Shown here in pieces: positions 48,107 through 52,442 of a stretch of DNA of 64,000 nt. Position numbers and translations under genes: made by a program. The stretch is taken from NCBI GenBank assembly GCA_963745835.1, contig CAVUZH010000014.1:224001-288000 (forward strand), written 5' to 3'. The DNA comes from an uncultured delta proteobacterium. Lineage in GTDB: Bacteria; Desulfobacterota; Binatia; UBA9968. The notes below the pieces were generated by a model. That model did no database searches, had not been told where the DNA came from, and saw nothing but the letters and a program-made list of their open reading frames with translations. The stretch's first letter is position 1; each line of letters opens with the position of its first letter.

Positions 48107-49408
48107 ATGTTTGACAAAATCACGGCTCGATCCAAGGGATTTTTTTACGGCTGGTGGATGGTGGCCGTGGGTTGCGGCATGCGCATGCTCGGCGGCGGCT
48201 TTCATCTCTACGGCTTTACGATTTTTTTCTTGCCGATCACCCAAGAGTTGGGCTTGACTCGAGCGGCGACTTCCCTGGTCTTCTCGTTAGCCCGGGCTGA
48301 AGGCGCCATCGAAGGGCCGTTGGCGGGTTACTTAATCGATCGCTTCGGGCCGCGCCCGATGATGCTGGCGGGGGTGATCTTGTCAGGCGTAGGTTACATG
48401 CTGCTCGCCGGAGTCGAAACCTATTATGGCTTGATCGCGATCTATCTGGGCGTGATCTCATTATCCTTCTCGGCCGGCTTCATGCATTCTCCCATGGTCC
48501 TCGCCAATAGCTGGTTCATCCGGCGCAGGGCCTTGGCGATGACCTTGATCAGCAGCTCCATCGGTATCGGCGGTACTCTGATCACACCACTGCTGGCCTT
48601 CAGCGTCCAGACCTGGGGTTGGCGTTATGGAGCTTTTTTGTCCGGCCTCGGATTGATCCTGATCGGCGTGCCTGTGGCGCTCCTGGTCAAACGTTCACCC
48701 GAAAGCATGGGCTTGGCGCCCGACGGTGCCGCGCCGGAAGAGAAAGACGCGACGGCGGTCAAAACCACACGTAAAGCTAACCGGCACGTTAATGAGGATG
48801 AAATTGAGTTCACTCTTCGGCAAGCGATGCGCACCGCCGCCTTCTGGATCATGATCCTGGCCACCACCACGCGAGTTGGCGTGTTCAATGCGATTACGGT
48901 TCACTTCGTGCCGATCATGGTCTGGAAAGGCGCGAGCGAGCAGCGCGCCGCGGCGCTGCTGGCGACGATGGCGCTGATGAGTTTACCATCGCATTTGCTG
49001 GTCGGCTGGATTGCGGATCATGTCAGCAAACCACGGCTGATGGCGGCTTGCATGGGCGTGGGCGCGCTGTCGATTGCCTTCTTGGCCTATGGCGAAGGAG
49101 AATGGTCACTCTGGATGTTCGTTCTACTCTTTACGATCATGGAAGCAATCTTTCCGGTCGGCTGGGCAACCGTAGGCGATTTTTTTGGCCGAAAATCTTT
49201 CGCGACGATCCGCGGCACGATGAGTTTTTTCTACTTATGGGGACCTGCGCTGGGGCCTGTCATCACCGGCGCGATCTATGATCGATATCAAAGTTATGCG
49301 CCGATGATGTCGGTGTATATCGCGCTGTCGGTGATCGCGGGCTGCCTCTATGCAATGATGGCCCCGCCGAAGCGCGCTAACCTGTCGGCTGCTGAATCAG
49401 CCTCATAG
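48107..49408 (+). CDS. MFS transporter (OFA/MCT-like)
   Basis: FYGWW, G.LIDRFGPR, WF.RRRA.A, GAIYDR. Confidence 0.92.
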   Translation: MFDKITARSKGFFYGWWMVAVGCGMRMLGGGFHLYGFTIFFLPITQELGLTRAATSLVFSLARAEGAIEGPLAGYLIDRFGPRPMMLAGVILSGVGYMLLAGVETYYGLIAIYLGVISLSFSAGFMHSPMVLANSWFIRRRALAMTLISSSIGIGGTLITPLLAFSVQTWGWRYGAFLSGLGLILIGVPVALLVKRSPESMGLAPDGAAPEEKDATAVKTTRKANRHVNEDEIEFTLRQAMRTAAFWIMILATTTRVGVFNAITVHFVPIMVWKGASEQRAAALLATMALMSLPSHLLVGWIADHVSKPRLMAACMGVGALSIAFLAYGEGEWSLWMFVLLFTIMEAIFPVGWATVGDFFGRKSFATIRGTMSFFYLWGPALGPVITGAIYDRYQSYAPMMSVYIALSVIAGCLYAMMAPPKRANLSAAESAS

Positions 49409-49469
49409 GTTTCGCTGCACTCGTTCGGATCGCTTCAACGTACTGAAGCGTACGCCTTATATTACTGTA

Positions 49470-49650
49470 GTCATACTCGATGATAGATATTGCATTGTCG
49501 TCCAAGAAGCTTGCTGGTTAGAGGACCTTACGTACGCGATTCCGTTAGAGGATCTAGCTGAGACTGTCCCGACCAGCAAAAGAACGGAGTCAAAAGTTCT
49601 ATGGAAAGTTGTCCCGTCGAGGACCGATATAAGGCTAACGTTCCGTTCAC
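49470..49650 (+). ncRNA. IS110 bridge RNA
   Basis: target loop (stems TTGCTGGT/ACCAGCAA, GGAC/GTCC) with guides CGTACGC and AGCTGAG; donor loop (GAACGGA/TCCGTTC, GTCC/GGAC) with guides ATGGAAAGT and ATATAAG; exact RNA ends approximate. Confidence 0.8.
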
Positions 49651-49690
49651 AGCTATTGGAGTAAAGTAAGCAAAGAAGGAGGACAACAAA

Positions 49691-50917
49691 GTGCCACGAT
49701 ATTATCTGGGAGTAGATTGGGCAGACCGAGTACACCAGCTCTACGGTGGCGACGAGAACGGGATAAAGGTAATGGAGATGAAAGTCCAAGAGAACCCTGA
49801 AGGGCTGGCGGAGTTGGCGCATTGGCTCAATCAGAGCAGAGCTGAGCAGGTGGAGCTGTGGGCGGCGATCGAGAAGCCGCACGGGCGCATTGTGGATTTT
49901 CTTTTGGATCATGGGGTAGTGGTTTATCCGGTCAATCCCAAGGTCTTGGATCGTGCTCGGGACCGGTTTCGCATGAGTCAATCCAAGAGCGACCCCTTTG
50001 ACGCTTGGGTACTGTCGGATTTTCTTCGGACCGACCACGGTCACCTCAGGCCCCTTCGGCCAAGCTCTGAGCAGGCCCAGGAGCTTAAGCTGCTTACCCG
50101 GGATCAGCAAAGAATGGTGCGTCACAAAACGCGTTTGCTCAATCAGCTCAAGTTCACTCTCAAGGAGTACTATCCTCGACCGGTGGAGGTTTTTGGGGAT
50201 CTGGAGGCTCGTATAGCAGTAGACTTTCTCAAGCAGTATTCGACGCCAACGGCGCTCTCGAAGCTTAGCCGTAAGCAGTGGAGCCGATTTGCCCAGCAGC
50301 ATCCTCATCTTGGTAAAGCACGCAGTGCCAAGCTGTGGGAGGAGCTGAAAAAGCCGCAACTTGTGGTTCCCGATCACGTCGTCAGAGCCAAGGCGCAGTT
50401 GCTCGAAGTGCTGCTCGATCAGCTTGAGGCTTCGCTGCGAAGCATAGAGAAGTACAGCGACAAGGTCGAACGTTTTTTCGCCTCTACACCGGCCGCTAGG
50501 CTTGTGGAGAAGCTGCCGGGAGGGAAAAGCGGAACGTTGCTGCCGGCCCTTTGGGCCGAGCTGGGAGATGCCCCAGCTCGATGGGAATCCTTTAAGCACC
50601 TTCAGGCCGAAGCGGGAGCAGTCCCGGTGACCAAATCGAGTGGCAAGAGTCGCATTGTTGAGTTTCGGTTTTCTTGTAACAAACAATTGCGCTACGCCGT
50701 CTACTGGTTTGCTTTTATCTCGATAAACCGCAGCCAGTGGGCCAAGGCCTTTTATCGAGACCAACGGGCCAGAGGACACAGCCATCCCCAAGCACTTCGG
50801 GCTTTGGGAGCGAAGTGGTTGAAAATTATTTTTGTGCTGTGGAGAGATCATAAACCTTATGACGAAACCCATCACTTGGCCAACATTGCACGACAGAAAA
50901 TGCGCCAGGCAGCGTGA
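49691..50917 (+). CDS. IS110 recombinase/transposase
   Basis: DEDD RuvC (GVDW, AIE, KSDPFDA); Tnp serine in PVTKSSGK; AGGAGG RBS. Confidence 0.93.
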   Translation: MPRYYLGVDWADRVHQLYGGDENGIKVMEMKVQENPEGLAELAHWLNQSRAEQVELWAAIEKPHGRIVDFLLDHGVVVYPVNPKVLDRARDRFRMSQSKSDPFDAWVLSDFLRTDHGHLRPLRPSSEQAQELKLLTRDQQRMVRHKTRLLNQLKFTLKEYYPRPVEVFGDLEARIAVDFLKQYSTPTALSKLSRKQWSRFAQQHPHLGKARSAKLWEELKKPQLVVPDHVVRAKAQLLEVLLDQLEASLRSIEKYSDKVERFFASTPAARLVEKLPGGKSGTLLPALWAELGDAPARWESFKHLQAEAGAVPVTKSSGKSRIVEFRFSCNKQLRYAVYWFAFISINRSQWAKAFYRDQRARGHSHPQALRALGAKWLKIIFVLWRDHKPYDETHHLANIARQKMRQAA

Positions 50918-51049
50918 AATAAAATCGATGGGGCTTGACAGGGCTCATAGAAAGTCTCAGCTCATCCAACTTCGCGCGCCTTGCCTCTGAGGTCTTTTGA
51001 GCAGCCTCAGTCAAGCTCCCAGGACCTACTCTCGTCAGGTAGATTCATT

Positions 51050-52442
51050 GGTAGCGTCAAGAGTTGTGTGTAAAATCTTCGACGGGGTTTATACTCCAGT
51101 TAGTATTCAAGTGATGAAACACAGCGAAGACGATTCTTTGTAAACTCTGGGTATGAGCCATCACCCCCATGGGGCGAGTTCTTCGTCTGACTTCTCGAAA
51201 GGTCCGTTCGATTAAGTTGGTGGTCCTTAAGCGGCTCCACAGCTTAGAGTTCTTGATGGCAAAGAAGCTCAGCAGCTGATCGAAGTCTTTCTTTAAGCAA
51301 GCCACCGCTCTGGGATAAGCCTTTCTCCAACGTGAGGAAAATCGCCAGTAAGCCTGAGCCGCTTCTCGGCGATTGGCCGCATGGCTGATCCGGTTTAAAG
51401 CCGTCTTGACCGCCGGCTGGTCTTTCTTTTTCACTTTATCTAAGACGTTTCTGGTTTTGTGCGCCCAGCAGCGCTGTAGCAGGGGCTTGGGATAAATGAT
51501 CTGTAAGGCGTGATGCAGTCCCGTGCCGCCATCAGTAGCCATCAACTGGCACTGGCTCCCTTTGAGTCCTCTTCTGTAGAGATCGGCTAAGAAAGCTTCC
51601 CAGCAGGCCGCCGACTCACTGGCGGCCGGGTAAAAGTCGATCATTTCATGATGGCCTTCGACGGTGATGCCGAAGGCGCAAAGGAGGATTTTCTTTTGCA
51701 CCTTAAGCGCTCCCTTGCTCTTTAACACCACACCATCGAAGAACAGATAGCGGTAGCGATCCTGGAGCGAGCGGTCGTGATAACGACTGACCTCTTGATC
51801 CAACCCCCGCGCAATGCGTGAAATGGTCGAGGCCGAGACCTTCTCGCCCAAAACCGGCGCCAGTACCGCGGCAGCTTTGCGGGTGGACAGTCCCAAACAA
51901 AAACACGCCAACAGAACCCTATCCACTGAGCGGCAGCGCCGGGCATAGCGCTCAAAGAGCTTGGTCGGAAAACCGCCTTTGCGGCGGCGCGGCACTAACA
52001 GTTCTAAATCACCCATCTCGGTCAGCAGATGCCTTATGTAATACCCATTGCGGTAGTCCGGTCGATCCAATGCATGCTCGTAACGAGACAGCCCTAAGTA
52101 CTCGGCCATATCTTCTTCGAGCTGCTTCTGCACCAGTTCTTTGAGCACCTGGAGCGCCATCGGTTTAAAGTCTCCCTCCCAATCAAAACCGTTGATCTCA
52201 TTAAGAGCTCGCGATACATTTCTTGACGTTGCTTGATCGAGCAGCATCGGGGTGCCCTCCTCTTGTTTGTGTTGGTTGCACAACTCTGGAGTTAGCACCC
52301 CTTCTATTTTTTCCCAATCTAAAAATGACTTAGGCTTTTCCCTTAACCACCTCCCAATCCTCTCTTCTCGCCCAAATGTGAAAGTCATTTTCTCCCATCC
52401 TCTCTCCCCAATTCGAATTTACACACAGATCCATACATCACC
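51050..52442 (-). mobile_element. IS256-family element with 8-bp target duplication
   Basis: imperfect IRs GGTAGCGTCAAGAGTTGTGTGTAAA / TTTACACACAGATCCATACATCACC; DR GATTCATT at 51042-51049 and 52443-52450. Confidence 0.9.
51057..52247 (-). CDS. IS256 (Mutator) transposase
   Basis: YRNGY..R, GLSTR, FDG, TDG..GL, QRC..HK.RN, RTTN.IER.FRE.RRR. Confidence 0.93.
   Translation of the reverse strand: MLLDQATSRNVSRALNEINGFDWEGDFKPMALQVLKELVQKQLEEDMAEYLGLSRYEHALDRPDYRNGYYIRHLLTEMGDLELLVPRRRKGGFPTKLFERYARRCRSVDRVLLACFCLGLSTRKAAAVLAPVLGEKVSASTISRIARGLDQEVSRYHDRSLQDRYRYLFFDGVVLKSKGALKVQKKILLCAFGITVEGHHEMIDFYPAASESAACWEAFLADLYRRGLKGSQCQLMATDGGTGLHHALQIIYPKPLLQRCWAHKTRNVLDKVKKKDQPAVKTALNRISHAANRREAAQAYWRFSSRWRKAYPRAVACLKKDFDQLLSFFAIKNSKLWSRLRTTNLIERTFREVRRRTRPMGVMAHTQSLQRIVFAVFHHLNTNWSINPVEDFTHNS

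What the first reader, a model, noticed from the sequence alone, without database searches (positions are those of the whole stretch)
49449..50962. IS110 with a fully decodable bridge RNA whose guides match its own insertion site and ends
Seen: the empty target reads CGTACGC-CT-CAGCT (49449-49457 joined to 50958-50962), and the circle junction reads ATAGAAAGT-CT-TATATT. In the left non-coding end, one internal loop carries CGTACGC (49531-49537, identical to the left target) and AGCTGAG (49556-49562, reverse complement of core + right target). A second loop carries ATGGAAAGT (49601-49609, left donor with 1 mismatch) and ATATAAG (49627-49633, reverse complement of core + right donor). Both loops are closed by clear stems. 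Circularisation builds TTGACA-N17-TATATT in front of the RNA. Established: this is the bridge-RNA mechanism described for IS621/IS110. Inference: an intact RNA-guided recombinase ortholog from a poorly sampled lineage, with unusually long (7-nt) right guides and left guides that appear not to include the core.
Basis: partly seen in the sequence, partly recalled or inferred. Interest (0 to 1): 0.8.

Follow-up and report, generated by a model that had tools for sequence, protein, structure and literature searches.

The report
IS110 element with matching bridge RNA
This is an intact IS110-family insertion sequence whose left end encodes a bridge RNA with guides that match its own insertion site and its own ends, so it is a well-supported new example of a mechanism described in 2024, not a new mechanism.

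Summary
A 1498-bp element (49458-50955) lies between two CT dinucleotides. It encodes a 408-aa IS110-family RNA-guided transposase. The genome holds three 99-100% identical copies, all in the same position of a ~125-bp palindromic repeat. Sixteen unoccupied repeats read CGTACGC-CT-CAGCT with a single CT.

The left end holds two stem-loops, each with a 12x12 internal loop. RNAalifold found this structure independently on 52 orthologues. Of 34 pairs, 19 show changes on both sides, and 0 of 500 shuffles reach the observed measures.

Across 51 orthologous loci the right target guide matches the right flank at 5 of 5 positions in 42 loci and at 4 of 5 in 9. None of 2000 permutations reaches this.

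Handshake guides and the TTGACA-N17-TATATT junction promoter are present too.

The 7-nt right guides hold across this clade, and long right guides were already reported for some IS110s. The left donor guide never covers the core. The left target guide register varies by up to 2 nt among orthologues.

No circle junction or transcript was shown.

Verdict: a new member of a known kind, of moderate interest.

The parts
49386..49457 (+). Left half of a ~125-bp palindromic interspersed repeat, which is the target. It overlaps the 3' end of the MFS gene. It holds the hairpin CGCTTCA/TGAAGCG, the left target CGTACGC (49449-55) and the core CT (49456-57). The start coordinate is approximate.
49458..50955 (+). 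IS110-family element, 1498 bp without the cores. It has no terminal inverted repeats and is flanked by CT on both sides.
49458..49463 (+). TATATT: the -10 box of the junction promoter. Its first five bases are the right donor (TATAT, 49458-62).
49510..49580 (+). Target-binding stem-loop of the bridge RNA: outer stems 49510-19/49571-80 and 49523-26/49566-69, and inner hairpin 49538-54.
49531..49537 (+). Left target guide CGUACGC, identical to the left target top strand. It is followed by GA, not CU.
49556..49562 (+). Right target guide AGCUGAG, the reverse complement of core CT plus CAGCT.
49563..49565 (+). Target-loop handshake guide ACU, the reverse complement of the last three donor bases AGT.
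   Evidence: concept from PMC11208158
49582..49648 (+). Donor-binding stem-loop of the bridge RNA: outer stems 49582-88/49642-48 and 49595-98/49637-40, and inner hairpin 49611-24.
49601..49609 (+). Left donor guide AUGGAAAGU, which matches the left donor ATAGAAAGT apart from one G-T wobble. It is followed by U, then the stem G, so it does not cover the core.
49627..49633 (+). Right donor guide AUAUAAG, the reverse complement of core CT plus TATAT.
49634..49635 (+). Donor-loop handshake guide GC, the reverse complement of the last two left-target bases GC.
49691..50917 (+). Recombinase gene: GTG start, 408 aa, with AAGGAGG at 49676-82 upstream. Predicted catalytic residues are D9, E61, D101, D104 and S317.
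50935..50940 (+). TTGACA: the -35 box in the right end, which completes the promoter only after circularisation.
50947..50955 (+). Left donor ATAGAAAGT, the last 9 bases of the element.
50956..51007 (+). Second CT core (50956-57), right target CAGCT (50958-62) and the right half of the palindromic repeat. The end coordinate is approximate.

Best explanation
This is a recently active IS110-group insertion sequence that moves by bridge-RNA-guided recombination.

Inferred cycle, by analogy with IS621: excision joins the right and left ends at one CT. This creates a sigma-70 promoter, TTGACA-N17-TATATT. The promoter drives a non-coding RNA from the left end.

That RNA folds into two stem-loops, each with a 12x12 internal loop.

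[quoted passage not shown] - In the second loop, the 5' strand (AUGGAAAGU) and the 3' strand (AUAUA-AG) do the same for the element's own joined ends.
- The 2-3 nt after each right guide (ACU and GC) are handshake guides. They pair with the incoming strand of the other DNA after top-strand exchange.

A tetramer of the DEDD/serine recombinase then exchanges strands at the CT. This inserts the circle into CGTACGC-CT-CAGCT, a site near the centre of a >100-copy palindromic repeat.

Shown here: the anatomy, the empty and occupied sites, the conserved structure, and the covariation between guides and flanks.

Inferred by analogy with IS621: the RNA itself, the circle, the protein-RNA complex and the chemistry.
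For: Protein. Pfam DEDD_Tnp_IS110 (7e-31) and Transposase_20 (2e-10) match. NCBIfam NF033542, 'IS110 family RNA-guided transposase', scores 149.1 bits against a cut-off of 140. The protein aligns with the IS621 and ISCro4 structures over the DxxD motif and the catalytic-serine segment. D9, E61, D101, D104 and S317 are invariant in 14 relatives.

Boundaries and target.
- There are three full copies at 99-100% identity plus an 88-bp remnant.
- All lie at the same point of a repeat whose flanks are only 70-90% alike.
- 108 of 120 BLAST pieces span the insertion point uninterrupted.
- 16 exact empty 14-mers exist, all in that repeat, and 3 sites are occupied.

RNA structure, on 52 distinct orthologous left ends.
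- 94.4% of cells are paired.
- 19 of 34 pairs carry changes on both sides.
- 0 of 500 shuffles reach any of the five measures.
- Slid controls give 28-48% paired.
- RNAalifold independently returns the same two stem-loops.

Guides.
- All four guide strings sit in the loop strands.
- Across 51 loci with both flanks (42 distinct guide pairs), the right target guide matches the right flank at 5/5 positions in 42 loci and at 4/5 in 9.
- The observed mean is 4.83, the permuted mean 2.18, and 0 of 2000 permutations reach the observed value.
- The left target guide scores 6.69 of 8 against 4.08 permuted, again 0 of 2000.
- Target-loop guides are hypervariable while donor-loop guides and element ends are conserved.

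Handshake guides.
- ACU follows the right target guide in 48 of the 52 loci listed (ACC in 3, ACA in 1). The donor ends in AGT in 50 of the same 52 (TGT and GGT once each).
- The first donor-loop handshake base pairs with the last left-target base in 50 of 52 loci.

Promoter. A TTGAC -35 motif (TTGACA in 49 of the 52 loci listed, TTGACG in 3) stands in the right end before the LE TATA-type box. No sigma-70-like site precedes the RNA in the integrated copy.
Against: There is no direct evidence of the RNA, the circle or current activity.

- Only assembled contigs of public runs could be laid, and they showed no back-joining (circle) joint.
- The one long contig from an RNA library (49450-50650, about 96% alike) carries flanking repeat sequence. 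It may be DNA carry-over or read-through from a relative.
- The single-sequence fold is not more stable than shuffles (z = -0.95).
- Rfam has no matching family. The only matches were two chance-level ones, at E = 1.7 and 6.4.
- One of the three copies is frameshifted.
- The left target guide sits 1-2 nt closer to the inner stem than in most orthologues and does not pair with the core. IS621 strongly prefers pairing to both strands of the core (PMC11208160).
Confidence: 0.93

Rival explanations
1. The element is a fossil. The guide matches are real but the element no longer moves, because the recombinase or RNA is defective or never expressed. On this reading it is a dead copy family, not a working RNA-guided recombinase.
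For: - No circle junction was seen in the contigs laid.
- One copy is frameshifted and one is reduced to 88 bp.
- No promoter precedes the RNA in the integrated state.
Against: - Two copies have open 408-aa frames with all five catalytic residues.
- They differ at only 6 of 1498 positions, and their left ends are identical.
- A 95%-identical element with the same guides sits in the same target in another genome of the genus.
- Lack of a promoter in the integrated state is the expected design. The abstract of PMC13626964 reports weak bridge RNA expression from integrated IS621.
Confidence: 0.05
2. The left-end structure is a leader (5' UTR) that regulates transposase translation or stability, and the protein alone recognises the palindromic repeat. 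The matches between loops and flanks would then be incidental.
For: - The structured region lies directly upstream of the ribosome-binding site.
- The target carries a hairpin that a protein could read.
- The ISPpu10 preprint reports that a target hairpin contributes to recognition (abstract).
Against: Loop sequences change together with the flanks across 42 distinct guide pairs, and 0 of 2000 permutations reach the observed match. The stems meanwhile stay constant or covary. A leader without guide function would not track the target sequence in this way.
Confidence: 0.02

Closest known systems
IS621 (E. coli), the reference bridge-RNA element (PMC11208160, PMC11208158)
   Same: - DEDD plus serine recombinase.
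- CT core on both sides.
[quoted passage not shown]
- Handshake guides after the right guides.
- A promoter rebuilt at the RE-LE junction.
- Insertion into a repetitive palindromic element.
   Different: - The protein is only distantly alike (phmmer E = 4e-8 over parts; 408 against 326 aa).
- The right guides are contiguous 7-mers, where IS621 has a 4-nt right target guide and a discontiguous right donor guide.
- Neither the left donor guide nor, in this copy, the left target guide pairs with the core. In IS621 all four guides include it.
- No conserved 5' stem-loop was found. The leader is 23-178 nt long and unalignable across the clade.
ISCro4 / IS622 bridge recombinase (PDB 9t56; bioRxiv 10.1101/2025.05.14.653916, search listing and abstract only)
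   Same: It is the best PDB sequence match (E = 7e-9), with the same two-domain recombinase.
   Different: The sequence relationship is distant. I did not read its bridge RNA, so guide lengths were not compared.
ISPpu10 / ISPpu9 of Pseudomonas putida (bioRxiv 10.64898/2026.03.19.712850, abstract; PMC12288879, search listing)
   Same: These are IS110 elements that insert into multi-copy intergenic palindromic repeats. For ISPpu10 a hairpin 5' of the target is reported to be required. Here a hairpin (CGCTTCA/TGAAGCG) ends inside the left target.
   Different: Whether the hairpin matters here is untested. The sequence relationship was not examined.

Membership tests
IS110 family, IS110 group (bridge-RNA elements) | N-terminal RuvC-like DEDD domain | tested here: met
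   PF01548 matches at 7e-31 over residues 6-162. D9, E61, D101 and D104 are invariant in 14 relatives. The DxxD motif aligns with that of IS621.
IS110 family, IS110 group (bridge-RNA elements) | C-terminal Tnp domain with catalytic serine | tested here: met
   PF02371 matches at 2e-10. S317 aligns with the serine of the YESG segment of the IS621 chain, which the paper numbers S241. S317 is invariant.
IS110 family, IS110 group (bridge-RNA elements) | Curated family model above its cut-off | tested here: met
   NF033542 'IS110 family RNA-guided transposase' scores 149.1 bits against a cut-off of 140.
IS110 family, IS110 group (bridge-RNA elements) | No terminal inverted repeats; element flanked by a conserved core dinucleotide that is present once in the empty site | tested here: met
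   CT lies on both sides in 3 of 3 copies, and a single CT lies in each of 16 empty sites. The ends TATATTACTG... and ...CATAGAAAGT are not inverted repeats; I read this and ran no repeat tool.
IS110 family, IS110 group (bridge-RNA elements) | Long left non-coding end carrying a structured RNA with two internal loops | tested here: met
   The left end is 233 nt and the right end 38 nt. The structure is supported by covariation in 52 sequences.
IS110 family, IS110 group (bridge-RNA elements) | Loop strands complementary to the target (loop 1) and the donor (loop 2), varying together with them across orthologues | tested here: met
IS110 family, IS110 group (bridge-RNA elements) | Core dinucleotide included in all four guide pairings, as in IS621 | tested here: not met
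   Both right guides include AG. The left target guide is followed by GA and the left donor guide by UG. The left donor guide lacks the core in 52 of 52 orthologues. This is a feature of IS621, not a definition of the family.
IS110 family, IS110 group (bridge-RNA elements) | Sigma-70 promoter rebuilt at the RE-LE junction | tested here: met
   TTGACA-17-TATATT forms in the joined sequence. The motif is conserved across the 52 loci listed (TTGACA in 49, TTGACG in 3). This is sequence evidence only.
IS110 family, IS110 group (bridge-RNA elements) | Circular intermediate and expressed bridge RNA bound by the recombinase | not testable with these tools
   Only contigs of public runs were on offer, and none showed a circle joint.
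IS1111 group | Bridge RNA in a long right end, with sub-terminal inverted repeats of 7-17 bp | tested here: not met
   The right end is only 38 nt and the RNA lies in the left end. The group description comes from PMC11208160.

The most novel reading that the evidence does not exclude
In this clade the left guides are not locked to the core. Three observations support this.

- The left donor guide is a 9-nt match to the donor alone in every orthologue.
- The scaffold around the left target guide is almost invariant, yet the guide's last target-matching base sits 2, 3 or 4 nt before the inner stem in different orthologues. The counts among 45 distinct strands are 7, 25 and 13.
- The guide accordingly covers none, one or both core bases.

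Two orthologues with the same target (L042 and L075) use different registers.

If this is real, bottom-strand recognition and cleavage in these enzymes tolerates a sliding guide and needs no core pairing. That differs from IS621, where pairing to both strands of the core is strongly preferred. These elements also carry naturally the extended 7-nt right guides and fully matched handshake guides that had to be engineered into IS621.
Probability: 0.35. Interest if true: 0.55.

Novelty: new member of a known kind. Interest (0 to 1): 0.38.

Why it matters
This element gives an independent, purely comparative confirmation of the bridge-RNA model in a distant clade of uncultured soil and groundwater bacteria (Binatia, Methylomirabilota/Rokubacteria, Nitrospirales and others).

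The clade offers dozens of natural target-loop variants on one near-constant scaffold. That makes it a ready-made data set for learning guide rules.

The natural 7-nt right guides and complete handshake guides are the features reported to raise specificity and efficiency when engineered into IS621. These orthologues are therefore reasonable candidates for bridge-editing screens.

For the host genome, the element marks a >100-copy palindromic repeat as a safe landing site.

It does not reveal a new mechanism.

Tried and rejected
- **Rfam**. No bridge-RNA family matched. The two matches (snoR121 at E = 1.7, ST7-OT3_4 at E = 6.4) are at chance level.
- **Single-sequence folding**. It was not informative (z = -0.95), and the minimum-energy fold pairs guide bases with each other.
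- **Public runs**. All 24 runs offered were Logan contigs, not raw reads. I laid 4 of them (X1, X10, X15, X18) at 90% likeness.
  - No back-joining joint, which would mark a circle, appeared.
  - The joints that skip 1500 bases (49455 to 50956, and 49458 to 50959) have sides of only 22-29 letters. They are most simply empty repeat copies of this or related organisms.
  - Contigs from RNA libraries cover parts of the element at 90-97% likeness, but they cannot show a transcript start, strand or level.
  - I draw no conclusion about expression or habitat from these.
- **A conserved 5' stem-loop** before the target loop. The leader is 23-178 nt long and does not align across the clade, and RNAalifold gave no structure.
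- **The flanking repeat as part of the element.** I rejected this because the flanks are 70-90% alike while the element is 99-100% alike, and more than 100 repeats are uninterrupted.
- **The 88-bp remnant as a guide-directed product.** Its inner end lies 8 nt past the left-target-guide DNA and joins the repeat about 5 nt past the core, with 1 nt of shared sequence. That looks like an ordinary deletion, and I did not pursue it.
- **Not done.** I built no covariance model and made no structure prediction, because the comparative evidence was already decisive.
- **Supplements.** This clade may already be catalogued there.
- **Literature.** A search for 'bridge RNA', 'IS110' and 'Binatia' from 2025 on, requiring at least two of the three terms, found 41 papers. 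None of the 15 listed contains 'Binatia'.
Full report
**What is in the sequence**

- Left side: CGTACGC (49449-55), CT (49456-57), then TATATT... begins the element.
- Right side: the element ends ...ATAGAAAGT (50947-55), followed by CT (50956-57) and CAGCT (50958-62).

Between them lies one long ORF, 49691-50917 on the + strand, with a GTG start and 408 aa. AAGGAGG lies upstream at 49676-82.
- It matches Pfam DEDD_Tnp_IS110 (7e-31) and Transposase_20 (2e-10).
- It passes the curated cut-off of NCBIfam NF033542, 'IS110 family RNA-guided transposase' (149.1 bits against 140).
- Against solved structures it gives only weak partial sequence matches, to ISCro4 (9t56, E = 7e-9) and IS621 (8wt6, E = 4e-8).
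- Those alignments place D101/D104 on the DxxD motif of IS621. They place S317 on the serine of its YESG segment, which the structure paper numbers S241 (passages read).
- D9, E61, D101, D104 and S317 are invariant in 14 relatives of 70-95% identity.

**Boundaries, copies and target**

The window's genome holds three full copies and an 88-bp left-end remnant.
- Full copies: C14:273458-274955 (this one), C3:1197591-1199088 and C16:89931-91428.
- Remnant: C14:580170-580257.
- The first 233 bases, the whole left non-coding end, are identical in all three copies.
- The C14 and C3 copies differ at 6 positions.
- The C16 copy has a 1-base deletion at element position 460 and a 1-base insertion near the stop. 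This splits its frame.

All copies sit at the same point of a repeated sequence whose flanks are only about 70-90% alike.
- I built a query from 150 bases on each side of the element. It found 120 BLAST pieces in the genome, and 108 of them cross the insertion point without interruption.
- The exact 14-mer CGTACGC-CT-CAGCT, with one CT, occurs 16 times. The expectation by chance is 0.05. All 16 lie in this repeat, and 3 more sites are occupied.
- 35 places, counting matches on either strand, match with at most one mismatch.

The repeat is about 125 bp long. It has inverted termini (...CAGGCTGCTGAAAAAG / CTTTTTGAGCAGCCTG...) and folds into one long imperfect hairpin. The insertion point lies near its apex, just after a small hairpin, CGCTTCA-ACGTAC-TGAAGCG, that ends inside the left target.

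The element boundaries, the single-CT empty site and the target specificity are therefore observed facts, not inferences.

**The RNA**

I collected relatives of the protein.
- A protein search gave 1698 proteins at E <= 1e-3 among the 8000 candidates scored. Many are exactly 408 aa, and most of the named ones come from metagenomes.
- A scan of representative genomes gave 78 distinct loci. The record titles are mostly MAGs of Candidatus Binatia, Rokubacteria/Methylomirabilota, Nitrospirales, 'Deltaproteobacteria', Verrucomicrobia and Dehalococcoidia.
- The 95%-identical element lies in a genome that the genome search places in the same genus as the window's. That genome is titled a Candidatus Binatia MAG. 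The host's class is an inference from this.

Aligning the 260 bases upstream of the ORF, and then 52 distinct RNA regions (alignment A2), shows the signature expected of a bridge RNA: a nearly constant scaffold interrupted by two hypervariable stretches.

I wrote down a structure of six helices (34 pairs) and counted it on A2.
- 94.4% of cells form standard pairs.
- 19 pairs have changes on both sides.
- 0 of 500 shuffles reach any of the five measures.
- Sliding the partners by 1-3 columns drops pairing to 28-48%.
- RNAalifold, run without my structure, returned the same two stem-loops (32 pairs, 18 with double changes).

Each stem-loop has an internal loop of about 12 x 12 nt capped by a short hairpin. 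In window coordinates the target stem-loop is 49510-49580 and the donor stem-loop is 49582-49648.

Two results count against the structure when taken alone.
- The single-sequence fold is not unusually stable (z = -0.95).
- Rfam has no matching family.

**Guides**

In this element the guides read as follows.
- Loop 1, 5' strand: ends in CGUACGC, the same as the left target.
- Loop 1, 3' strand: AGCUG-AG, the reverse complement of CT plus CAGCT.
- Loop 2, 5' strand: AUGGAAAGU. This equals the left donor except for a G where the donor has A, which would be a G-T wobble with the bottom strand.
- Loop 2, 3' strand: AUAUA-AG, the reverse complement of CT plus TATAT.

In 20000 shuffles of the left end, the four strings never occurred together. 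The product of the single frequencies is 2e-7.

The stronger test is across orthologues.
- I found the scaffold with regular expressions in 60 of the 79 sources examined (the window plus the 78 loci).
- I then located each element's ends through its own donor guides.
- 51 loci had both flanks long enough to test. These represent 42 distinct target-guide pairs. Loci without a scaffold match or with short flanks were dropped.
- The five bases after the core in the right flank match the guide at 5/5 positions in 42 loci and at 4/5 in 9.
- With one representative per guide pair, the mean is 4.83 against 2.18 when flanks are permuted among loci. None of 2000 permutations reaches the observed value.
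- For the left flank, taking the best of five registers, the mean is 6.69 of 8 against 4.08. Again none of 2000 permutations reaches it.

The donor guides and the element ends, by contrast, are conserved across the clade. This is exactly the asymmetry reported for IS110 bridge RNAs (PMC11208160, passages read).

**Handshake guides and promoter**

The structure paper (PMC11208158, passages read) describes 2-nt 'handshake guides' directly 3' of the right guides. They pair with positions 6-7 of the other DNA after top-strand exchange.
- Here the right target guide is followed by ACU, the reverse complement of the donor's last bases AGT. ACU stands there in 48 of the 52 loci listed (ACC in 3, ACA in 1), and the donor ends in AGT in 50 of the same 52.
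- The right donor guide is followed by GC, the reverse complement of the target's last two bases GC.
- Across the 52 loci listed, the first of these bases pairs with the last left-target base in 50, and the second pairs in 30. All five loci with G at the second position have C in the target.

The right end carries a TTGAC -35 motif in every locus listed, TTGACA in 49 of 52 and TTGACG in 3. In this element it lies 17 nt from TATATT across one CT, matching 11 of 12 consensus positions. No sigma-70-like site precedes the RNA in the integrated copy. This fits the junction-promoter design known for IS110 elements. It also fits the report that the bridge RNA is only weakly expressed from integrated IS621 (abstract of PMC13626964).

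**Where it differs from IS621**

(1) The right guides are contiguous 7-mers: the core plus 5 nt.
- This holds throughout the clade.
- IS621 has a 4-nt right target guide.
- Durrant et al. note that some orthologues have longer ones, and that a 7-bp guide improves specificity. So this is known variation.

(2) In IS621 the core is included in all four pairings, and pairing to both strands of the core is strongly preferred.
- Here both right guides include AG.
- The left donor guide, however, is a 9-nt match to the donor alone. It is followed by one variable base and then the invariant first G of the inner stem, in all 52 aligned orthologues.

(3) The left target guide varies in register although the scaffold is nearly invariant.
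- I measured register from the first base of the inner stem.
- The last target-matching base lies at -4 (followed by CU and one base) in 13 of 45 distinct strands.
- It lies at -3 (usually followed by C) in 25 of 45.
- It lies at -2 (no core base) in 7 of 45, and this element is one of the seven.
- Restricting to cases with at least 6 of 8 matches and a margin of 3 over the next register leaves 8, 20 and 4 strands.
- This element's register is the same as that of the donor loop.
- I cannot tell from sequence whether the left duplex really slides, or whether the stem's first pair opens.

This third point is the only part of the finding that may go beyond what is in print. I could not check it against the supplementary data of the published surveys, because supplements were closed.

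**What was not shown**

Nothing here shows the RNA, the circle or present activity.
- The public runs on offer were assembled contigs only.
- Laying four of them gave no circle joint.
- It did give short-sided joints that skip the element, which are most simply empty repeats.
- It also gave contigs from RNA libraries that cannot prove transcription.

**Verdict**

This is a young, probably functional IS110-group element with a complete bridge RNA, inserted in a multi-copy palindromic repeat of a Binatia-like genome.

It is a new member of a known kind. The standard NCBI family model already names the protein an RNA-guided transposase.

Its interest lies in two things: the large natural set of target-loop variants on one scaffold, and the core-less, register-variable left guides.

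One genome used by the tools (G012; locus L007, apparently the same contig as L021) is flagged as unpublished. It contributes one row of 52 to alignment A2, and no claim depends on it.

Noticed in passing
window 51057-52388 (-): An IS256-family (Mutator-type) transposase gene of 443 aa lies immediately beyond the right half of the target repeat. It matches PF00872 at 1.4e-87 and NF033543 at 313.8 bits. I did not look for its ends or copy number.
   Followed up: no
window 49386-49457 and 50956-51007; more than 100 places in the genome: A ~125-bp palindromic interspersed repeat with inverted termini (CAGGCTGCTGAAAAAG... / ...CTTTTTGAGCAGCCTG). 108 BLAST pieces cross its centre. The copy here overlaps the last codons of the MFS transporter gene (48107-49408). 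Only one sub-family, 16 empty and 3 occupied copies, carries the exact IS target. Most others read ...GTACGCCTCCGCTCGTCGAT.
   Followed up: partly
G000 C14:580170-580257 (locus L004): An 88-bp remnant of the element's left end, in a diverged copy of the repeat. It stops inside the target loop, 8 nt after the left-target-guide DNA. It is joined to the repeat's right half about 5 nt past the core, with 1 nt of shared sequence. It looks like a deletion that removed the rest of the element.
   Followed up: partly
G000 C16:89931-91428 (loci L003, L017, L018): The third copy has a 1-base deletion at element position 460, which splits the recombinase frame into residues 1-76 and 75-408. It also has a 1-base insertion near the stop. 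Its left end, the bridge RNA region, is intact.
   Followed up: yes
loci L068, L070, L086 (Gemmataceae, Gemmatimonadales and Rokubacteria MAG records): In these orthologues the leader between the -10 box and the target stem-loop is 169-178 nt, against 43-111 nt in most others and 51 nt here. The extra GC-rich segment looks structured. I did not examine it.
   Followed up: no
loci L042 and L075: Two orthologues inserted in the same target sequence (...CACCCTGCC-CT-CTCCC) carry left target guides that are shifted by one base relative to the inner stem.
   Followed up: partly
window 49450-50650, run X15 (RNA library), record 18: A 1253-base contig from a metatranscriptome library covers the left end and most of the gene of a ~96%-alike element, and includes 53 bases of flanking repeat. 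It may be read-through transcription or DNA carry-over. Contigs cannot tell which.
   Followed up: no
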